29,333 bases of DNA. Origin: Cystobasidiomycetes sp. EMM_F5 (lineage: Eukaryota). The notes beneath the pieces are model-generated. The model made no database searches. It saw only the letters and a program-made list of their open reading frames with translations, and was not told where the DNA came from. The stretch covers positions 62,001-91,333 of the forward strand of contig JBPGPT010000050.1 of assembly GCA_051047955.1 (NCBI GenBank), in the 5' to 3' direction. The position numbers and the translations under genes are program-made. This document shows, in pieces, positions 3,412 through 29,333 of the stretch (its first letter is position 1; each line of letters begins with the position of its first letter).

Positions 3412-5106
3412 TCATCGACTGTGCACTCTATGACGGCTGCGCAAGTGATCGAATGCATGGTTGCCTCGCCAGTCTCGCTGCCCAGGTATGGTGCTCACTC
3501 CGGTAGTCCTAGGATACCTGGAGTGTCCGTAGCTGCCCCTTCCCGTATGACCAGAGCCTGAGCCTGAGCGACGATCTGAGCGACGATCACTACTGCGATG
3601 ACTTCTTCTTCCACTGCCGCTGGACGGTGATCCACTGCCCAGAAAGCTCGAAATGAGCGGCATCAGGGCAGTCGCGGCAGAAAGTACGCCTGAACCGCCG
3701 CTGCCTGCCGCGCTACCTTGTGCTTTGCCAGTCAACATAGGTAGGAACGTGTTGATGAGGCCCATAAGCCCGCCAGATGAGCCGCTGCCAGATGAGCCGC
3801 CAATCGAATTGCCCAGCGGTCGAGGTGTTCGGGTTTTGGCTTTGTTGTCTACATGCCAGCCGTAAGTCCCTTGATAATCTCCGGCTCGAATTCCTTTGAG
3901 GTCTTGCCGACGATGCCACTCGTTTACAGTAACTGCATCCAGCCCCGACCTGCACCACCACAGATTAAGTTGTAGCCAAAACCCAGGGCAACAAGGGTTA
4001 ACTTACATGTTGGCTCTCGCTCGGCCTTGAACATACGCCAGCTGTGGATCCTCGTTCTCGTTGTGGAACAATGGTCGACCGTCCATTGTGCGATACATAG
4101 CAGCTGAATGATTGAGATCCTTGCCATGCGATATATTTGGTTCCAGTTCTATCGTTCGACCTTTGGGAATGGTTTCGTCAAGCCATTTCTTGACATGACC
4201 ATTTGGTCTAGCATCCTGTACCGCCAGCGCAGCGTTTGCGCCATATTCCCGCCGAGCATCCATCTGCGAGATTCCTTTCACATGTGTTGGCTTGAGCTGT
4301 CGCGGCGCTGATGTCTCGCCGGCGTTGAAAAGACGCTTCTTCCTTGCCCGTAAATCGTGATGTTCCCATGCCTTCCTTCCTCTGCCACTCTCGAACTGAA
4401 GACCCTGAGAATATATCACATCGGGCCCGGCGGGAGCATACGACACTGAGCTTGACGTCCCGCGAGACGGTGCATAGCTGCTTGGTGGCTGTAGAAAGTC
4501 TCGGTAGTCAATTGGTTGCTGGTGGTTTGCGTATGCGTATGCGTCAGCCTCGCTCCGTCGCCTATCATGCATAGAGACTCGTGAGGATGCGGAAGGAGGT
4601 GCTCTAATATCAGAATTTGTGCGTCCAGTGCTCTGAGAAGATCCGGATTGATAACCTCCACTGCTGCCCCCTCGTGATGGGACGGTACGGAAGTCCCCAT
4701 ATTGCGATTGGCCTTGCTGCGATTGAGCCATCTGCGACCCTCCCCACGGAAGAGGGTGGCCCGAGTGCGGAGAGTACTGCGAGGTTCCCATTGATGGGGC
4801 ACCGCCACCTGCAGAGAAGTTACATTAGCGCAAACACAATGCGGAGAAAGTTGGCGTACGGGCATAACCTGAGAAGTCGTCAGAACCAAAGCCCTCGAAT
4901 CCATCGGATGTGCCTTGTGGCATGTACATCAGACCCGGTGGACCAGCAGAGTGGCTTTTTCGGTGGCCGCTAGAGAGTGAAGACGGATTCGTAGACGCCC
5001 TCGTATTGTGGGAATTAGTGGTACTCCCGTCGACATACGACCATCCAGACGAGTGAGATGCGTCAGACCCTACGCTCTTAACTGTGGCCTGGCGAAATCT
5101 TGTCAT
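3412..5106 (-). CDS. Hypothetical Ser/Gly-rich protein (~528 aa)
   Basis: Three ORF-track fragments join in frame through canonical introns 4859-4809 (GTACGC..GCTAAT..CAG) and 4006-3950 (GTAAGT..CAG). Exons 5106-4860, 4808-4007, 3949-3412 total 1587 nt. No family recognised. Confidence 0.7.
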
Positions 5107-21274: not shown

Positions 21275-24200
21275 ATGCCAGGATTCTTCAAACGCTTTCA
21301 TCGCGACAAGGCGAGGGCGAACACTGAAAAACAATCAGGACAACAGAGCGCAACAGGCCAGGAAGCTCGCCCGCTGAGTGCAGGGCTGTTCCATCGACGC
21401 AGTCACAAGGTCAGGCCTGCAGCCGACTCGAATGGCGCCCCCGTCGAGTCCAGTATTGTATTGGCAGTCGCACCGTCGCTCGACATACGCTTCCCGCTCG
21501 AACGCACACCATCCCCGACACTTGTCCAAGTAGACGAATCGCAGTCGCCCTGGGTCGATGTTGGCGAGGTATCGGCTGGCCAGCATGTTGCAGGAACGTC
21601 GTTGGGTCTGGCAGGATTGTCCTGGCAGCAACGCCCAGTAAACCCGCGACTGAAGGCTATCCTTGCCCGGGCACGTCTGAATGCTCATCAGACGACGACG
21701 TTGATAATTGCGTGTGCGCGAGTACTGGGTGAACAGGGTAGGTCTGGTATGTTGTTGCCGAGTCGCAGGTTAAAGTCGGCTTTTTCAGGTCTCTCCACAC
21801 TAGGACTCTTCCGGCCATGGCGTATCGCAGAGTCTCCCTTCCTCATAACTCATACCCTTGGCTTGTTCCTGCAAGCTGTGGATCCCGATGGTGCGGCAAT
21901 CCCTCTTGCGGACAAGGATTTGCTGGCCATTGGACGCGACGAGAAGGCTACCCAGCTGGGGCTCTTTGAAGCTACTCTGGCAGACATCGGTCCGCACAAT
22001 GTAGCAGCTTGCATGAAATGGGTCAGCTGCATGCTGAACTCCGTATGTGCGGGTATGAAACTGAAGTGCGCTTGCACAGGGTCTTAGGCATCTCCACTTT
22101 GGCACAGCGGGCTTCGCAAAGGACGAAGACAAGTCGCGATGGCACTTCTATACATCTTTCAGCGAGAAGGAAGTAGAGCATGACTTATCACGAGCAGCAT
22201 ACACAGATCTCTTCCTCCCTACCATACCGAAAGCCAATGCTGCCTTGCTCAAAGCGCTTTTCGACCTCTTTGCAGTGCTGTCGATGCATGCGGAAGAAAC
22301 CGCCATGACAGGTAAATCATAAAACCCTTGCACATAGAGACAACTAATGAAGCATATGCAGGGCCGCATCTCTGCCGATTATTTGGATTCTGGACTTTCG
22401 GTTCGCATGGTGAGGAATACAACAGCTTTCAACAGCTATACGAGGCGTACAAGATGTCATCCAGCGTCCTATACCACCTCTTTTTGGCCTATCTCAGATC
22501 CCAGGGCGATCTGCTCCCTTTGCGCGTGCGAAATCTATACTCTATATATCCCCCTCGAACCACAACGCTGGAAGTTGAGCATACAATTCCCATTTCCGAA
22601 TGGCAAATATTGCACGCAGTCATTCAGCTACATAAGACTGTGTCGTTTACGAAACCTTCTGCGAAGCCGCGCGCGAAAAGGTTCCCAACTGCCCTGCTGG
22701 AGATGGGCTTATCTGCCGCGGAACCCAGTGACGAAGATAGCGCAGAAAGAGCGGCTTGGATCAGTGCCGCTGAAAGCAGCAAAGACGGTGATTCCTTCCG
22801 GTTGGATCGCTTAATTTCTGATGAGACTAGCCGTATATTCGTTACTTTTCAAGAGCCCGACATGCCACACTCGCCGCGATCAGACCACTTCTGTTCCACC
22901 CATAGTATTTCGCGACGTAGATCGGCATCATGGGACCCCGAGCGCAGGAATTTGCCTGAGAAAACCACCACTGCAAGCGTAATACATCGGAAGTGAGTGG
23001 TGCCGCGGTGAAGTAAAGCTGCCTCTTAACATCTCTTGTCCGTCAGGCCAAACCAAGCATCTACTTCAGTTGTCGACGTTCGACATGTCCCTGCAGCTTC
23101 AGCTTCTACAGCAGAAGATGTCGAAGAGCCGCGATCCTGGAGTCAATTTGCAACAACTGGTTTTGGAGGAACGGCAGACTCTGACAATTTCTCACTCATC
23201 AACGAATTTGGTCAAATGTCTGGCAGCAAAGCGCAGTCGGCGCTGCGCAGCAGCCGTTCGCCGGCCAAGCTCAAGAAGCCGAGATCGTCACGACGAAGGA
23301 GGCGACACAGCTCCGCTTCGTCTGAAGGGTTAAATGAGACGGCTAGTCCCGATGAGCGGGAAGAAGATCTGCACCCTCCAAAAGCGGATCTAATTAGTGT
23401 GACTGCGACTCTGCTGGATCCTGTCTTCGCGGACGCCTACCTTGACAGCCTAGATGAGCCAGACCTCACCTCGAAGTGGCCGATGTTCGTTGTCGCAGAG
23501 ATTAAGGGTTCGATACCTCCCTATCGTGGCATCATCGTTGAAGAGACTAGATCCGACCTCCTGGCATCACTCAGCCGTAATGCCTCGAAGCAAAGTGAGC
23601 TTGCACTCCCACGCGAGCCGGCTTCACCCACTCAAAGCTCCGTTCGTGTGGAGAGTACAAAAAGCGGGCGTGGAAAGCCAAGCTTCGCGTCACTTCGGAC
23701 AAGGCATCGAATTTCTGGCATGCTGACCCGCCTCAAGAGCGGTAGCAGCGTCAACTTGCCGAAACATGGCATCGAACGTGTCTCAATGCCGCACACATCA
23801 CAGACACGTGTACTCCAAGAGGCTGAAATGGTACCTGAGGTTGCTGATGCTACAAAGCGAGAGACCTCGCCTCCAACTCTCACCACTCCCGTTCGAAGAC
23901 CCATCCCAATGATTATCAAGACTTCGCCACTGACTCCTCCCCGCTATAGTATGCGTTTGCAGCCTGTGATCTCTCCAATGAAGGTCGAAGAGGAGAATTT
24001 GCCGTCCCCGCTGTCTTCCAAGACGCAAGATGAGCTGTCTGAGAGAGCAAGGCTTGCGGACGAGCCCGTCATACTCGCTGCTACTCATGTACCACCGCCA
24101 TCGCCCAATGAGCATGCGTCGGCTGTTGAGGCAGACTCGGTCACTACTCCATTGCCGGAGGACGCGGTCGATATTGAGACTCTGGCCAAGTCCGAGGAAA

Positions 24201-27019
24201 CACAGTCGCCACCTCATATCAATAAAAAATCTGATGACGCTGTATCTACTGGACCAAGCCAGATAGAGACAAATCAGAAAAAAGCTGCAGTTCCAGTACA
24301 TTCCGGTAATGATCAACCTATGGTCGAAAATGAGACTGAATCTGCGACAGGTGTAAATGATTACATCGTCAATAATGGAACTGAACCCCTCAAGGATACT
24401 CCCCTAGTACAAGAATATCCGAGTGCGTTCAATAAACCGACAGGAAGTGCCGCTGTAGCCTCGTTCGACGATGCCGCTGAGCACCTTGGCTCAATTGGTA
24501 TTCAAAACCTGGTCGTCAAGGGCAACGCAGACGAGGTGAATACAGAACACGAAGTTCCGATAGCGCTCAATACGAACTTGATCCCGAGCGCATTCGCATC
24601 CGCTTTATATTTGAGCGAAAGCCGTGGCGAGCGCCACATTGCCCCACATGCTGAAGTCGAAGAGGTTCCGCCAGCAGGACCTTCGACAACAGTCTTGCCT
24701 AGCGATCAAGTCTCGGAACGCGAGCATACGCACGACCAGGTCTCTCTCGTAGCTCCTGTCAAGTCTAGCCACGCAACGACGACTGGGACACCAGCAGCAT
24801 CAAGTCAGTCTCGAGCAGGTTCAGCAATCGTGGATCAAGCAGACACGGAATCTGTCGAAACAAGGATCGCAGAGTCATCGAATGATGCTGTACAACCTGA
24901 TCAATCGCAGCACACGTCCGATGAATTGCAAGCGGCCGCTGGATCTGCAAGTTCCGACATTAACCTTGTCGAGCAGACGTTGGGGGAAACAAACGGCGGA
25001 AGAAGCTCAGAGGCAGCACAGATGCAACCTGTCGACAACGGTATCCTCGGTCGACGGGTGAAGACGGCAGAAGGTAGAGACCACACCCACTTGCTCATAA
25101 CGGCGGATGAGGAAGCGACACAGCATGCAGCTACATCCAGCGAGCATGTCAACCCCGTCAGGGGCCCTCTGCGTAACAACAGCGAGATTCAACAGGTCAC
25201 AGAAACGCCATACAAGTGGACTCAACTCAATCGCGTCAGTCCCGCTCTGAAGGCGCGGCTGACTTCATCTACAGATTCTTTGACACCAGTCGTTGCTCCA
25301 ACTTCTAAATCGCCGTCACAACCCGTATCTCCATCTACTGCTTCCCCGCCTGCATCGCCATCGAAAGCAGGCCGACTTTTGTCAGGAGCAAAGAAGATGC
25401 TTTCGAGAAAAAAATCCACTATTCCAGCAAGCGCGGTACCCGCAGTAGCTAGCACGGCCACAAGTGAGACAATTCCCGGATTGCCCGCGGGTGCTTCGGA
25501 CACCGTGACAGCCAACGTTGCCAGCATACCTACCGTGTACATGAAAGAGCCGACGATTACTCCATTTGACAGGCCCGCAGACAAATCGGCCGAGTCTCAT
25601 CATGCGGAGGAGCTCGTGCGCGTGGCGAATGTCAAGGAGACCGCACCTTCCACCGATTCTGCCCGTCAGATCAAGGCTGAATCAGATCTCCTGTTGGGCG
25701 GAACCTTACTTGCGGCTGAGGATACTTCACAAAGTGCCGACTCGGATCATACGGTCACTTCAGGCGTCTTCACGGAAGAGTTTGATCTGCCCGTGCCGAA
25801 GGATAGCGCTGGTATTGCAGAGCCTGGAAGACGTTCGCTGGAGGCGGAGCAAGGCAACCGAGCAATCGAGCTTGAGCAACTGGCTCGTGAGCAGACAACC
25901 GGTGATAATGAAGAACGAGAAGCGCTATTCTCCGAGTCAGACCAGTCTGGAGAAGGCAGCAGCCTCCCAAATTCGACGAACATTGACCACGTCAACACTG
26001 ATTCCTCGCGACAGGGAGACATGCTCTTCTCCGCAAACATTCTGGCACCCCCGCCACAGACGCAAACGTTGGATAGAAAGGATCATAAGATCCTACCGGA
26101 GCAACTTAACGACAGTAAGCCTTTTCTCTACAGAGTAATGGTAGTAGACCAATGACATTGGATGACTACAGGTCCAAATGGTGCAGAGCGCACGGCCCCC
26201 TTGGGAAGCTCTGACCGGGCGGAAGCCGCAGATGAAGTCAATAAGCTAGCCACTGGGAGCAACCTAGACGAATCCACTACAGTGGCCAATACTCCATCAT
26301 GGTTCGAAACTCCGGATCTTGCTGCAGCGGGAATGTCGGGCGGTTTCCGCTTTGGAGCCGATGCGTACATGCCTGCGAAAGTTGCACTGCCGAAAAATGA
26401 AGAGGCTCTCACCGTGAAGAACGAGGCTGACAAAATTCTTCTCGTTGACGAGACTGCCGCAATCCCTGCTGTTCCTACCGCCGGAGTCACCTTTCATTCA
26501 GGCAGCGATAGGCATGAGGTGAATGGCTTGCTCTCTCAAGAAGCCCATGCTGTAGACCAAATCGACAACGAGCCTCCATCTTCGTACGTCACGCAGGGCT
26601 CTGCACTTCCTCCCGCATCCGTCAATGCCTTGCATCTCGACGAGCGATCGGATCTGGACACCGCTAGCGACAACGGATCTGAAAACCTCGAAAGCGTGAA
26701 CCAGGCGGAGAATTCTATACCTGAAGCAAATATTGCAGTACAGACACCATGGGAATTCGAGACGCCCGATCTAGCAGCTGCTGGCATGTCTGGTGTATTT
26801 TTTCCTGAATTTGACTCCCCATCAAAGGCTCGGGATGCAGCACCTAGCTCGCCTGCTCGCGCATCTGCAGCAGTAATTGCAAAATTGGCGAGCGCAGCGA
26901 CGAGCTTGACTGGGAGCACTGTTACCGGCGTGCAGACGCTCATTGGGCATGTGGGAGAGCCGCGTGCTGGAGAAGCTGATCTGGAAGCCGCAGAAGCGGA
27001 AGACAAGTCGCGTCCGTAG
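21275..27019 (+). CDS. Large protein (~1824 aa) with Msb1/Mug8-like (RhoGAP-like) N-terminal domain and very long acidic/Ser-Pro disordered C-terminus
   Basis: Exons 21275-21737, 21789-22021, 22080-22311, 22362-22992, 23047-26114, 26172-27019 (5475 nt, open). N-terminal LIIAC..L.EQGLSTLGLFRPWR, PHNVAACMKWGLRHL and YHLFLAYLR resemble Msb1/Mug8-type domains from memory; the family call is unverified. Confidence 0.75.
26291..26794 (+). repeat. Internally duplicated coding motif TPxxFETPDLAAAGMSG (copies 26291-26341 and 26744-26794)
   Basis: TPSWFETPDLAAAGMSG and TPWEFETPDLAAAGMSG in the last exon of the large gene. Confidence 0.9.
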
Positions 27020-27184: not shown

Positions 27185-29010
27185 TCAACAGTACTCCTGC
27201 TTACTCCACTCATCCGACATCTCCTCATCTTGCTGCTCGTCCATATCATCGTCATCATCACTGCCGTCCTCGACTGCTAGACCGTCCTGCTCATCCTCAT
27301 CATCCTGCAGACTCTTTTCTAGTAGATCCCTCTTTTGATCTCTGATCTTTCTCTGCAGCTTCAAAAATGTGCCTAGGGGCGTAGGAGGAGTATACTTTTC
27401 ATCCGTTTTGCTCGTCTCCCTGAGATCCGCCAAGAAGGAATCTACCTGGGTTCTGTCAGCCGGGGAAAATTCGACGCTTGCTCGTTTGGTTTGTATAAAA
27501 CTTGAATTTGCATCGATACGTTCACACAGCTGCCTGAGTGCGCTCGCGAGCTTTTGATTCTTCGATGATGATTTTCGTAAATGCTTCTTGAGGGCAACCG
27601 AAATTGGGATTGATAATTCTGGAAAAGCGATGGATGTTGAAGAAATGGTGAGGAATTCGAGTAGGAGATGTGAGACTTCTTCAATCAGGCCATCCGCATA
27701 AATCCGCGTGTGGGGATACGCAGACGGAGCTCGGACATAGTATGCCCAATCGAGGGGTTTGAGAGAGGAGTTAGCGGATCCTTTACGTCGCCCATTCTTG
27801 TTGGATGAGATCTCCGAACTGTCTAATACCTCCAACATGAAAGGGGCGAGCGGGATGTAGATACCAGTACGCTGCATGACACGTAATAGGGAATTGATGA
27901 GCTGGAAGCGGAGTGGGAAGTAGCGGGATGAAGGGACAAGGCGGATGAGGCCCAGTGTCACTTGAACGAGCGGGTAGATGAGCGGTCGTAGTTCGGCTTC
28001 TGTATCGACAGAGGCAACGCGCGATGCGGCGGCTTCTGCCGACTCATCATCTCCGACGATATGAGAGGATGGATCACAGGCTGCTGAAAGGACGAGTGAC
28101 CAAAAATCGACACTGTGTACTGTAGTCCAGTTGTATACAGCTTGATGCCGGAGCGCAGTTGCGTCTTTATTTCCCTTGTTGGCTGCAGATGCAGCCGTTC
28201 GTGGAGCGACCTTCATTGCGTTTCTGAGGAGGACTGCCAGTTGACGGATATAGCCAAACGCAATCTGGTACGCTCTGTTTGGTTGAATGAGGTAGAGAGT
28301 CGCAGCCGAGTTTTTCATGAGGTTGAGCGTCGGTAGAGAGTATGCTGTCGTTCGCCTAGCAGCCGTCTGGATGGCACTGTATGTGCCTTTCAAGACGAGC
28401 TCATACGTGGCGGCATCGCCGCTGATGACCATCCTCCTCAGAGCGAGGAATGAAGCAAGGCGGATGGAATCGGAGGAGGAACTTGCCGGTGCTCCCCAAA
28501 AGTTGAGGAGGAGACGGAGATACGACCTGCTTGCTTTGCGGTTCGAGATGAGGTACGGTACGAGTCGAGAGGATTCGACAATGCTCAGATGGACTAGTTC
28601 AGATGAGGACGAGGAGGATGAGCTGGACAGGGAAGAAAGGAGAGCTTGTAGAGAAACGAAGTATGATTTTACGATCCGCTGAGCTGTACTAAATTTTTTC
28701 GCCTGTGTGGGAACTTTGCTGCGGTTATTGATGATGATTGACCAATCAGTCTTGAAGAGCGCGATGAGAGTGCAGAGACTTACATTCTCCCATTTGCCCC
28801 ATTCTTGATGGGAACATGGTGCTGTAGTACGAGCGGAGTGTACCTCAGCGCAGCGACCACGAGCTTGTTGAACACGACGGCATTGGGAATTTCGTAAATG
28901 TCACCCTGAACGGCTGCGTTGTCTCTTGCTTGAGCGTCGTCATCGCTGCCCTGCTTTGACGCGGTCCTGAAGGCGAGCAGCAATTTTCGGAGTGCTTTGA
29001 GTGAGCGGTT
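27185..29010 (-). CDS. NOC2: Nucleolar complex protein 2; 5' exons lie beyond the right edge
   Basis: Exons 29010-28784 and 28718-27185. Motifs NRSLKALRKLLLAFRTA, INLMKNSA-like LNLMKNSAATLY, YQIAFGYIRQLAVLLRNA, VYNWTTVHSVDFWS, LRPLIYPLVQVTLGLIRL, RYFPLRF, SIAFPEL, and an acidic tail. A small terminal intron near 27204 is possible. Confidence 0.93.
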
Positions 29011-29036
29011 CTGGAGTAGATGGATTGGAAGACAGG

Positions 29037-29333
29037 TCAGTGCAGGGTGAACGAAGCACATCAAACAATGCTCATCAGCGTCGAATCTATACAAGATGCG
29101 ACATGATCTACTCACCTGGAGTCGATATTCAAGTCAGATTGAGTACAAATCAGTGCAGGGTGAAGGAAGCACATCAAACAATGCTCATCAGCGTCGAATC
29201 TATACAAGATGCGACATGATCTACTCACCTGGAGTCGATATTCAAGTCAGATTGAGTACAAATCAGTGCAGGGTGAACGAAGCACATCAAACAATGCTCA
29301 TCAGCGTCGAATCTATACAAGATGCGACATGAT
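29037..29333. repeat. 113-bp tandem repeat (>=2.6 copies) inside the NOC2 intronic region
   Basis: Units start at 29037, 29150 and 29263 (tcagtgcagggtgaa...). They are identical except G at 29165 versus C at 29052 and 29278. The array runs to the window end. Confidence 0.97.

What the first reader, a model, noticed from the sequence alone, without database searches (positions are those of the whole stretch)
29011..29333. Back-to-back array of complete introns with zero-length exons inside NOC2 (candidate recursive splicing array)
Seen: on the NOC2 sense (-) strand each 113-bp unit is a full spliceosomal intron. Intron A = 29115..29011 (105 nt; GTGAGT...ACTGAC...CTCCAG, joining the NRSLKALRK exon). 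Intron B = 29228..29116 (113 nt; GTGAGT...TCTGAC-TTGAATATCGACTCCAG). Intron C ends with CAG at 29229 and starts outside the window. Each acceptor CAG abuts the next GTGAGT donor with no base between. The 40 nt before each junction contain no other AG and have an in-frame TGA, so no micro-exon fits. Established: AG|GT ratchet points define recursive splicing, known mainly from very long animal introns. Inference: in a genome whose introns are ~55 nt, this >320-nt intervening region in a conserved ribosome-biogenesis gene may be removed stepwise as stacked short introns, making the expansion invisible in the mRNA.
Basis: partly seen in the sequence, partly recalled or inferred. Interest (0 to 1): 0.85.

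Follow-up and report, generated by a model that had tools for sequence, protein, structure and literature searches.

The report
Tandem array of complete introns in NOC2
A short intron in a fungal ribosome-assembly gene has been copied head to tail at least two and a half times, and each copy looks able to be spliced out on its own, though no RNA data were available to show how the cell removes it.

Summary
A 113-bp tandem repeat (2.6 copies, 98% alike) runs off the window end at 29037..29333. On the NOC2 sense (-) strand every unit starts with GTGAGT, carries a CTGAC branch motif 18 nt before its end, and ends in CAG directly against the next GTGAGT. No coding micro-exon fits. The gene is a basidiomycete NOC2 (Pfam Noc2, E 1e-100). 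The array sits at a phase-0 position that also seems to hold an intron in a Microbotryum gene model.

Most likely this is an intronic minisatellite made by tandem duplication of nearly a whole short intron. Any pairing of its donors and acceptors gives the same mRNA.

Unit-by-unit (recursive) removal is plausible. It has a precedent in fungi at zero-nucleotide exons in Cryptococcus neoformans and S. pombe. It is untested here: no RNA run holds the organism, and no DNA contig from another run covers the repeat.

The upstream exon and the true copy number lie outside the window. I rate it a new variant of a known kind, of moderate interest.

The parts
29037..29333 (-). 113-bp tandem repeat, 2.6 copies, running off the window end
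   Evidence: TRF: period 113, 98% matches, score 587. The repeat finder families D1/D2 with spacing 113.
29229..29333 (-). Unit C, an incomplete copy. 105 nt lie in the window and its first 8 nt lie outside. It ends with CAG at 29229 and has a CTGAC branch motif at 29250..29246.
   Evidence: One difference from unit B (G at 29278 against C at 29165).
29116..29228 (-). Unit B, a complete 113-nt intron-like unit. Donor GTGAGT at 29228..29223. CTGAT at 34 nt and CTGAC (29137..29133) at 18 nt before the 3' end. Acceptor CAG at 29118..29116.
29011..29115 (-). Unit A, the terminal 105-nt intron copy. Its first 79 nt match the repeat (1 mismatch to B). Its last 26 nt are a different, pyrimidine-rich tail. 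CTGAC lies 26 nt before the acceptor CAG at 29013..29011.
28784..29010 (-). NOC2 exon beginning NRSLKALRKLLLAFR (75 codons plus 2 nt)
   Evidence: Aligns to the conserved xRSLKALRKLLLAFR block of basidiomycete NOC2 proteins.
28719..28783 (-). Ordinary 65-nt phase-2 intron of NOC2 (GTAAGT...CTGAT...GCAG), used as a local comparison
   Evidence: The alignment runs on across it. The ORF of relative P0002 starts in read-through just before the same KVPTQ exon start.
27185..28718 (-). Last NOC2 exon (510 codons plus stop)
   Evidence: Pfam PF03715 Noc2, E 1.3e-100, 336.9 bits. 949 homologues with E <= 0.001 among 8000 scored candidates.

Best explanation
The region is a minisatellite inside an old phase-0 intron of NOC2. 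It was made by tandem duplication of almost a whole short intron.

Each 113-nt unit keeps a consensus donor (GTGAGT), a branch motif at a normal distance (CTGAC, 18 nt) and an acceptor (CAG). The internal CAG|GTGAGT junctions are therefore zero-length exons. Any donor can be joined to any downstream acceptor, and each such join leaves either a shorter but still valid array or the finished exon-exon junction. The expansion is thus invisible in the mRNA, and its copy number is probably close to neutral.

Short-intron fungi recognise introns across the intron. I therefore expect the nearest acceptor to be used often, which means unit-by-unit removal, including recursive re-splicing of the upstream exon onto the next GTGAGT. 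Single-step removal of several units would occur alongside it.

Shown: the repeat, the signals, the lack of any possible coding micro-exon, and the identity of the gene.

Inferred: the origin by duplication, the neutrality, and every statement about which sites the spliceosome uses.
For: Repeat and unit anatomy.

Splice signals compared with seven short candidate introns of the same window: those have donors GTRNGY, CTRAY 12-43 nt from the acceptor, and lengths 49-121 nt. Unit B has GTGAGT, CTGAC at 18 nt and a length of 113 nt.

No AG in the last 67 nt of a unit, and an in-frame TGA 7 codons before each internal junction.

The gene is intact NOC2, with a conserved exon directly after unit A.

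Intron position: the Microbotryum intermedium model P0010 carries a 22-residue in-frame insert, starting with V and ending in Q, exactly between the conserved LQ and TRS. Its close relative P0019 lacks it. This is what an unspliced 66-nt phase-0 GT..AG intron would give.

The internal 34-nt tail looks like an intron 3' end, not like the expected end of the upstream exon. In 27 homologues that exon ends L[RK]xWQKx[IM][LI][EQ]. The tail matches only the final LQ and has its stop at the W position. It aligns to the terminal 26-nt tail better than all but 8 of 2000 shuffles, and the last 11 nt agree at 10 of 11.

Three unit types occur: G64 with the internal tail, C64 with the internal tail, G64 with the terminal tail. 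The reads must therefore have held at least one real junction from unit body to internal tail.

Precedent in fungi: a zero-nucleotide exon splits a 375-nt C. neoformans intron into 210 and 165 nt, and that paper reports 13 nested-splicing examples (10.1101/224170, passages). Two zero-length-exon cases are reported in S. pombe (10.1101/226894, passages). [quoted passage not shown]
Against: There is no RNA evidence of any kind, so single-step removal is equally compatible with the sequence.

The array is cut by the window end. The upstream exon, the first donor and the true number of units are unknown.

No independent assembly covers it. The contigs from runs X1 and X2 lie at 27331-27631, 28462-28694, 28053-28203 and 28371-28521 only.

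Divergence between the units is uneven. The first 79 nt are 99-100% alike, and the tails then differ by an indel and several substitutions. A simple duplicate-then-drift history does not predict this. It needs homogenisation of the array interior, or a breakpoint at position 79/80.

The tail-to-tail similarity is not specific proof of homology. One of seven other candidate intron tails scored 15.5, against the observed 16.

The seven comparison introns are heuristic picks from the 24 candidate rows. Apart from the NOC2 intron they are not verified.
Confidence: 0.55

Rival explanations
1. An ordinary intronic minisatellite whose internal splice signals are silent. The first donor is joined in one step to the last acceptor at 29011, and the copies are passengers.
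For: Nothing in the sequence forces use of the internal sites. Candidate introns of up to 121 nt occur in this window, and longer introns (336-391 nt) are spliced in other short-intron yeasts. The terminal tail has a higher pyrimidine share than the internal tail (0.76 against 0.53 over the last 17 nt), so the last acceptor may be the stronger one.
Against: The internal acceptor has a consensus CTGAC at 18 nt and is the nearest acceptor to every donor. In fungi studied by spliceosome profiling, such internal sites are used, and the smallest intron is chosen first in Lipomyces.
Confidence: 0.25
2. An assembly artefact. A de Bruijn graph cycle at a contig end was walked too often, or two alleles or strains were strung in series. 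The real locus would then have fewer units, possibly two, or an unknown larger number.
For: The repeat runs off the window end, which is where assemblies break. Searches for an ORF running from an upstream exon into a unit found nothing. That fits a contig ending here, though only weakly. The G/C difference at unit position 64 could be allelic.
Against: The unit body followed by the internal tail occurs with both G64 and C64, and the tail is always followed by a new GTGAGT. Such junctions cannot be built from a single-copy intron, so at least two units, and with them one zero-length junction, must be real. Whether the window end is a contig end is not known. The protein database places the NOC2 ORF on a contig of 91,041 bases.
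Confidence: 0.12
3. A different origin, which does not exclude the splicing model above. The duplicated segment spanned the exon-intron boundary: the last 34 nt of the upstream exon plus the first 79 nt of the intron. The internal tails would then be decayed exon ends, and a change at the tryptophan codon would have created both the stop and the CTGAC branch motif.
For: Identity between the units and the terminal copy stops sharply at unit position 79/80, as expected for a duplication breakpoint. The in-frame TGA lies exactly where 25 of 27 homologues have W, and the tail ends in LQ as the homologues end in [LI][EQ]. TGA lies inside the CTGAC motif.
Against: The nearly invariant L(-10), R/K(-9), Q(-6) and K/R(-5) are not matched, while the adjacent exon 2 is almost identical to the consensus. 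The unit bodies are 99-100% alike, so there was little time for the tail to decay. The tail has intron-like signals and resembles the terminal intron tail.
Confidence: 0.15
4. The unit is a mobile intron (an introner-like element) that inserted repeatedly at one site.
For: Near-identical complete introns are the hallmark of introner families. Both tails end in the same 7 nt, which could be read as a target-site duplication.
Against: There is no other copy in the 29,333-base window (best other matches are 15 nt or less, E >= 0.15). No exact match was found in metagenome contigs or genome contigs. No related ORF was found in the protein collections. The unit has no terminal inverted repeats and no unusual fold (z -0.43). 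The intron position looks old. The rest of the genome could not be searched.
Confidence: 0.04

Closest known systems
Recursive splicing at zero-nucleotide exons in fungi (C. neoformans BOT1 intron; S. pombe SPNCRNA.445 intron)
   Same: An acceptor AG directly abuts a donor GT inside an intervening sequence of a few hundred nt in a short-intron fungus. The intron is thereby split into shorter introns (passages read).
   Different: Those cases have one pivot point between two unrelated intron halves and are backed by spliceosome-bound intermediates. Here there are two or more pivot points between near-identical repeat units, clearly made by tandem duplication, and there are no RNA data.
Ratchet points / recursive splice sites of long Drosophila and vertebrate introns
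   Same: A juxtaposed acceptor and donor regenerate a 5' splice site after the first step. I saw abstracts and search listings only. The rest is general knowledge.
   Different: The animal cases lie in introns of tens of kilobases, often work through a recursive exon defined by exon definition, and are not tandem repeats.
Stwintrons and complex intervening sequences of fungi
   Same: An intervening sequence made of several U2 intron units is removed by consecutive reactions. Duplication of a donor is proposed as their origin, and the smallest unit is chosen first (PMC7138796, passages).
   Different: In a stwintron the internal intron interrupts a splice signal of the external one, so the order of removal is fixed. 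Here the units lie end to end, no signal is split, and any order works.
Intron gain by tandem or segmental duplication (Rogers model; PMC3265369 and PMC4974935, seen as search listing and abstract starts only)
   Same: A tandem duplication supplies a second set of splice sites, and the mRNA stays unchanged.
   Different: In that model a duplicated exon segment becomes a new intron. Here the duplicated material is itself an intron at an old position, and no part of the unit resembles the flanking exon 2.
Introner-like elements of fungi
   Same: Near-identical complete introns.
   Different: [quoted passage not shown] This unit is local, tandem and unstructured.

Membership tests
Recursive splicing site (zero-length exon / ratchet point) | Acceptor AG directly followed by donor GT inside an intervening sequence | tested here: met
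   CAG|GTGAGT at 29116|29115 and 29229|29228.
Recursive splicing site (zero-length exon / ratchet point) | A usable branch point and tract upstream of the internal AG | tested here: met
   CTGAC 18 nt and CTGAT 34 nt before the internal AG. Candidate introns of the window have CTRAY at 12-43 nt. The pyrimidine share of the last 17 nt is 0.53, within the local range of 0.41-0.76. This tests motifs only.
Recursive splicing site (zero-length exon / ratchet point) | The upstream exon joined to the site regenerates a functional 5' splice site | not testable with these tools
   The upstream exon lies outside the window. No genome is held, and no extension was found.
Recursive splicing site (zero-length exon / ratchet point) | Intermediates seen in RNA (partial lariats, branch reads, intermediate junctions) | not testable with these tools
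   No RNA holder was listed. 0 reads from the two RNA runs laid, about 6% of each run read.
Stwintron (spliceosomal twin intron, strict sense) | An internal intron interrupts the donor, branch or acceptor element of an external intron | tested here: not met
   Every unit has intact GTGAGT, CTGAC and CAG. The units abut and none is nested in a signal.
Introner-like element | Many dispersed near-identical copies in the genome | tested here: inconclusive
   None in this window and none in the collections searched. The organism's genome could not be searched.
Introner-like element | Stable predicted secondary structure | tested here: not met
   Unit B folds at -24.4 kcal/mol, z -0.43 against 200 shuffles, of which 62 fold at least as well.
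Intron made by tandem duplication of an exon segment (Rogers model) | The intron ends are copies of the adjoining exon sequences | tested here: not met
   The unit has no match to exon 2 beyond 10 nt. The internal tail fits the expected upstream exon end only at LQ and the W/stop position. The real upstream exon was not seen.
Minisatellite (tandem repeat) | Head-to-tail copies of a unit of tens to about a hundred bases | tested here: met
   Period 113, 2.6 copies, 98% matches.
NOC2 (Pfam PF03715) | Match to the Noc2 family profile above the curated cut-off | tested here: met
   336.9 bits against a cut-off of 29.9, E 1.3e-100.

The most novel reading that the evidence does not exclude
The array is an expandable 'intron minisatellite': a run of self-sufficient short introns that the spliceosome removes one unit at a time, re-splicing the upstream exon onto each regenerated GTGAGT. 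Copy number could then vary freely between strains with no effect on the NOC2 mRNA. This would be a natural, recent example of how zero-length-exon recursion sites are born, by tandem duplication of a whole intron. It would also show how a short-intron fungus can tolerate a several-fold lengthening of an intervening sequence.
Probability: 0.3. Interest if true: 0.7.

Novelty: new variant of a known kind. Interest (0 to 1): 0.45.

Why it matters
If the internal junctions are used, this locus shows in one step how a recursive splice site arises: tandem duplication of a complete short intron.

It would be a compact natural substrate, about 113 nt per unit, for studying how the spliceosome pairs donors and acceptors under intron definition. 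The outcome is the same mRNA whatever the route, so selection on the route is relaxed.

It also bears on how introns lengthen and multiply in fungi.

If the internal sites are silent, it is an ordinary intronic minisatellite and of little note.

Tried and rejected
Whole genome: none is held for this window.

Earlier notes of this scan: none by place, sequence or words.

Sequencing runs:
- No RNA holder was listed. Six DNA or unknown-kind holders have word shares of 0.05-0.16.
- Four runs were laid. X1 and X2 gave two short contigs each, all inside the last exon and none on the repeat.
- RNA runs X7 and X8 gave 0 reads. This is no test, because the organism was not shown to be in those runs.

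Extending the locus or finding relatives' DNA:
- A 24-nt exact pattern from the start of the unit gave 0 matches in metagenome contigs and 0 in genome contigs.
- NOC2 protein against metagenome contigs: 597 pattern matches, none confirmed.
- NOC2 alignment A2 against genome contigs: 77 pattern matches, none confirmed.

Finding the upstream exon through an ORF that reads into the first unit, using the 44-residue unit ORF as query:
- No hit among proteins of 78-2000 residues.
- No hit among proteins of 24-77 residues.
- The search of 1.84 billion representatives gave 8 hits at E <= 0.001. Seven of them show 26-44% identity in 2-14 stretches; the eighth (P0127) lists no matched stretch. All are proteins of 406-2102 residues. 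I take them as repeat or composition matches and did not check them further.

Known RNA in the unit: Rfam gave nothing inside the repeat. The one weak match (E 7.4) lies at 28721-28778 on the + strand. I noted a UGAUGA...CUGA pair in the unit and considered a box C/D snoRNA. I rejected it because the spacing is about 41 nt, there is no terminal stem, and Rfam finds nothing.

Structured RNA: z -0.43.

Terminal inverted repeats: none.

Pseudogene: rejected, because both downstream exons are open and conserved.

Literature: searches found no description of an end-to-end array of near-identical complete spliceosomal introns. The library lacks most subscription journals, and supplements were not consulted.

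Full report
**What is there**

Tandem Repeats Finder reports a single long-period array in the window. It lies at 29037..29333, with period 113, 2.6 copies, 98% matches, no indels and score 587.

Read on the - strand and cut into units, it consists of three parts:
- Unit C, an incomplete copy at 29333..29229. It has 105 nt in the window and lacks its first 8 nt.
- Unit B, a complete copy at 29228..29116, 113 nt.
- Unit A, the terminal copy at 29115..29011, 105 nt.

Every unit begins with GTGAGT and ends with CCAG. Each CAG is followed directly by the next GTGAGT. The last CAG is followed by an exon that starts NRSLKALRKLLLAFR.

B and C differ at one base in 105. A and B differ at that same base (unit position 64) within their first 79 nt. 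After position 79 the terminal copy has its own 26-nt tail in place of the 34-nt internal tail.

**The gene**

The large downstream exon (28718..27188) matches Pfam Noc2 at E 1.3e-100. It has 949 homologues at E <= 0.001 among 8000 scored candidates. The best named ones are basidiomycete NOC2 proteins at 43-46% identity, and the best unnamed one, P0002, is at 56%.

The 75-codon exon next to the array aligns to the conserved xRSLKALRKLLLAFR block. A 65-nt phase-2 intron (28783..28719) separates the two exons.

The N-terminal third of NOC2, with its acidic region and the DPEFFKYL and LRxWQK motifs of the relatives, is not in the window. It must lie beyond 29333.

**Can the internal junctions be anything other than intron against intron?**

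In unit B, AG occurs only at positions 4, 7, 28, 44 and 112. Read back from the junction in the frame set by exon 2, a TGA comes after six codons. No coding micro-exon can end at an internal donor.

**Do the units look like working introns of this genome?**

A rough scan looked for GT..AG segments with a CTRAY motif that join long open frames. It gave 24 candidate rows. I picked the seven short ones as plausible introns. Only the NOC2 one is backed by homology.

Those seven are 49-121 nt long, have donors of the form GTRNGY, and have CTRAY 12-43 nt before the acceptor. Unit B is 113 nt long, with GTGAGT and with CTGAC 18 nt before CAG. Unit A has CTGAC 26 nt before CAG.

By motif, each unit is a complete intron, long but within the local range. 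The array is AT-richer than the window (GC 0.44 against 0.52).

**Position of the intron**

In 27 stored homologues that matched a strict pattern for this region, the sequence before xRS ends L[RK]xWQKx[IM][LI][EQ]. These were 27 of 128 stored proteins. The rest did not match the pattern and were not examined.

One gene model, P0010 from Microbotryum intermedium, has an extra 22 residues exactly between LQ and TRS. The insert begins with V and ends with Q, and it is absent from the close relative P0019. An unspliced 66-nt phase-0 GT..AG intron would give exactly this.

I infer that the intron position is old and shared, and that the array grew inside an existing intron.

**Origin**

Two readings fit.

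(a) The whole intron was duplicated. The interior of the array has since been kept uniform, while the edge tail diverged. In favour: the internal tail has intron signals. It aligns to the terminal tail better than all but 8 of 2000 shuffles. The last 11 nt agree at 10 of 11. Against specificity: one of seven other candidate intron tails scored almost as high, 15.5 against 16.

(b) The duplicated piece ran from 34 nt inside the upstream exon to intron position 79. In favour: identity ends sharply at position 79/80. The in-frame TGA of the tail sits where 25 of 27 homologues have tryptophan, and it lies inside the CTGAC motif. Against: four nearly invariant residues of the expected exon end are not matched, although the neighbouring exon 2 is close to the consensus. 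The unit bodies are also too alike for much decay to have happened.

I favour (a) at about 2:1. The upstream exon sequence would decide.

A mobile-intron origin is unlikely:
- There is no other copy in the window.
- There is none in the searched collections.
- The unit has no inverted termini.
- It has no special fold (z -0.43).

The organism's own genome could not be searched.

**Is it an assembly artefact?**

The array touches the window end, and I could not learn whether that is a contig end. The database places the NOC2 ORF on a contig of 91,041 bases.

Three unit types exist: G64 with the internal tail, C64 with the internal tail, and G64 with the terminal tail. A junction from unit body to internal tail cannot come from a single-copy intron. 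At least two units, and so one zero-length junction, must be real.

Three or more units in series is what the assembly says. A graph walk through two alleles could mimic that. The copy number should be treated as unknown.

**How it most likely works**

The units abut and no signal is split. Joining any donor to any downstream acceptor therefore leaves either a shorter valid array or the final exon junction. The mRNA is the same by every route. This explains how such an expansion can persist in an essential ribosome-biogenesis gene.

Which routes are used is inference. Short-intron fungi pair sites across the intron, and for every donor the nearest acceptor lies 113 nt (or 105 nt) away.

Spliceosome profiling has shown such events in related settings:
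- A zero-nucleotide exon splits a 375-nt intron of C. neoformans BOT1 into 210 and 165 nt, and the same paper reports 13 nested events (10.1101/224170, passages).
- Two zero-length-exon cases are reported in S. pombe (10.1101/226894, passages).
- In Lipomyces the first sites chosen define the smallest internal intron (PMC7138796, passages).

I therefore expect frequent unit-wise removal, mixed with longer joins. I put 0.55 on the overall picture and about 0.3 on predominantly stepwise removal.

**What could not be done**

No RNA run holds the organism. Two RNA runs from the study of the best DNA holder gave no read on the stretch. The DNA contigs of two other runs lie only inside the last exon. 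All attempts to extend the locus or to fetch relatives' DNA failed.

**Comparison and novelty**

The thing works like a recursive splice site, a known kind that is documented in two yeasts. It is not a stwintron in the strict sense, because no signal is interrupted.

What I did not find described is a run of near-identical complete introns laid end to end, that is, recursion sites made by tandem duplication of an intron. The searches were made, in an incomplete library. I rate it a new variant of a known kind.

Interest is moderate (0.45). It would be a neat natural case for intron evolution and splice-site pairing. It rests on sequence alone, the array is truncated, and the dull alternative of a passenger minisatellite removed in one piece remains open.

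**A practical point for follow-up**

Most split reads are uninformative here, because splicing out an internal unit recreates the genomic junction.

Noticed in passing
P0010 (Microbotryum intermedium NOC2 model), alignment A1 columns about 309-330: The model has a 22-residue in-frame insert (V...LLQ) between the conserved LQ and TRS that its close relative P0019 lacks. It looks like an unspliced 66-nt intron left in the public gene model, at the same position as the array here.
   Followed up: partly
window 27331-27631, 28053-28203, 28371-28521, 28462-28694: Short low-depth contigs from two public DNA runs match these stretches with 0-3 differences each. One run is labelled a plant metagenome, and a phyllosphere metagenome is also among the low-share holders. 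The organism, or a very close strain, seems to occur at low abundance on plants. Shares are small, and only two runs were laid.
   Followed up: partly
window 29001-29332, + strand: The antisense strand of the array is open for up to 93 codons (29051..29332), because stops fall in different frames in successive units (113 is not a multiple of 3). ORF callers could report a spurious repeat protein here.
   Followed up: no
window 23030-26155, + strand: A 1041-codon open frame, rich in S, P, T, A and E with no obvious domains by eye, lies next to the 3' end of NOC2. A second open frame of 287 codons follows it at 26156-27019, possibly the same gene across an intron (candidates at 26115..26231/26249).
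   Followed up: no
window 3554-3802 and 4703-4737: Several short tandem repeats with periods of 6, 12 and 15 nt, all multiples of three. They are probably coding repeats in a gene on one of the strands.
   Followed up: no
window 27188-28717, - strand: The nearest NOC2 in 5.8 billion proteins is only 56% identical (P0002, unnamed) and the nearest named ones are 43-46%, spread over Pucciniomycotina, Tremellomycetes and Ustilaginomycotina. The lineage is poorly sampled, and no transcript-derived protein of this species is in the collection.
   Followed up: partly
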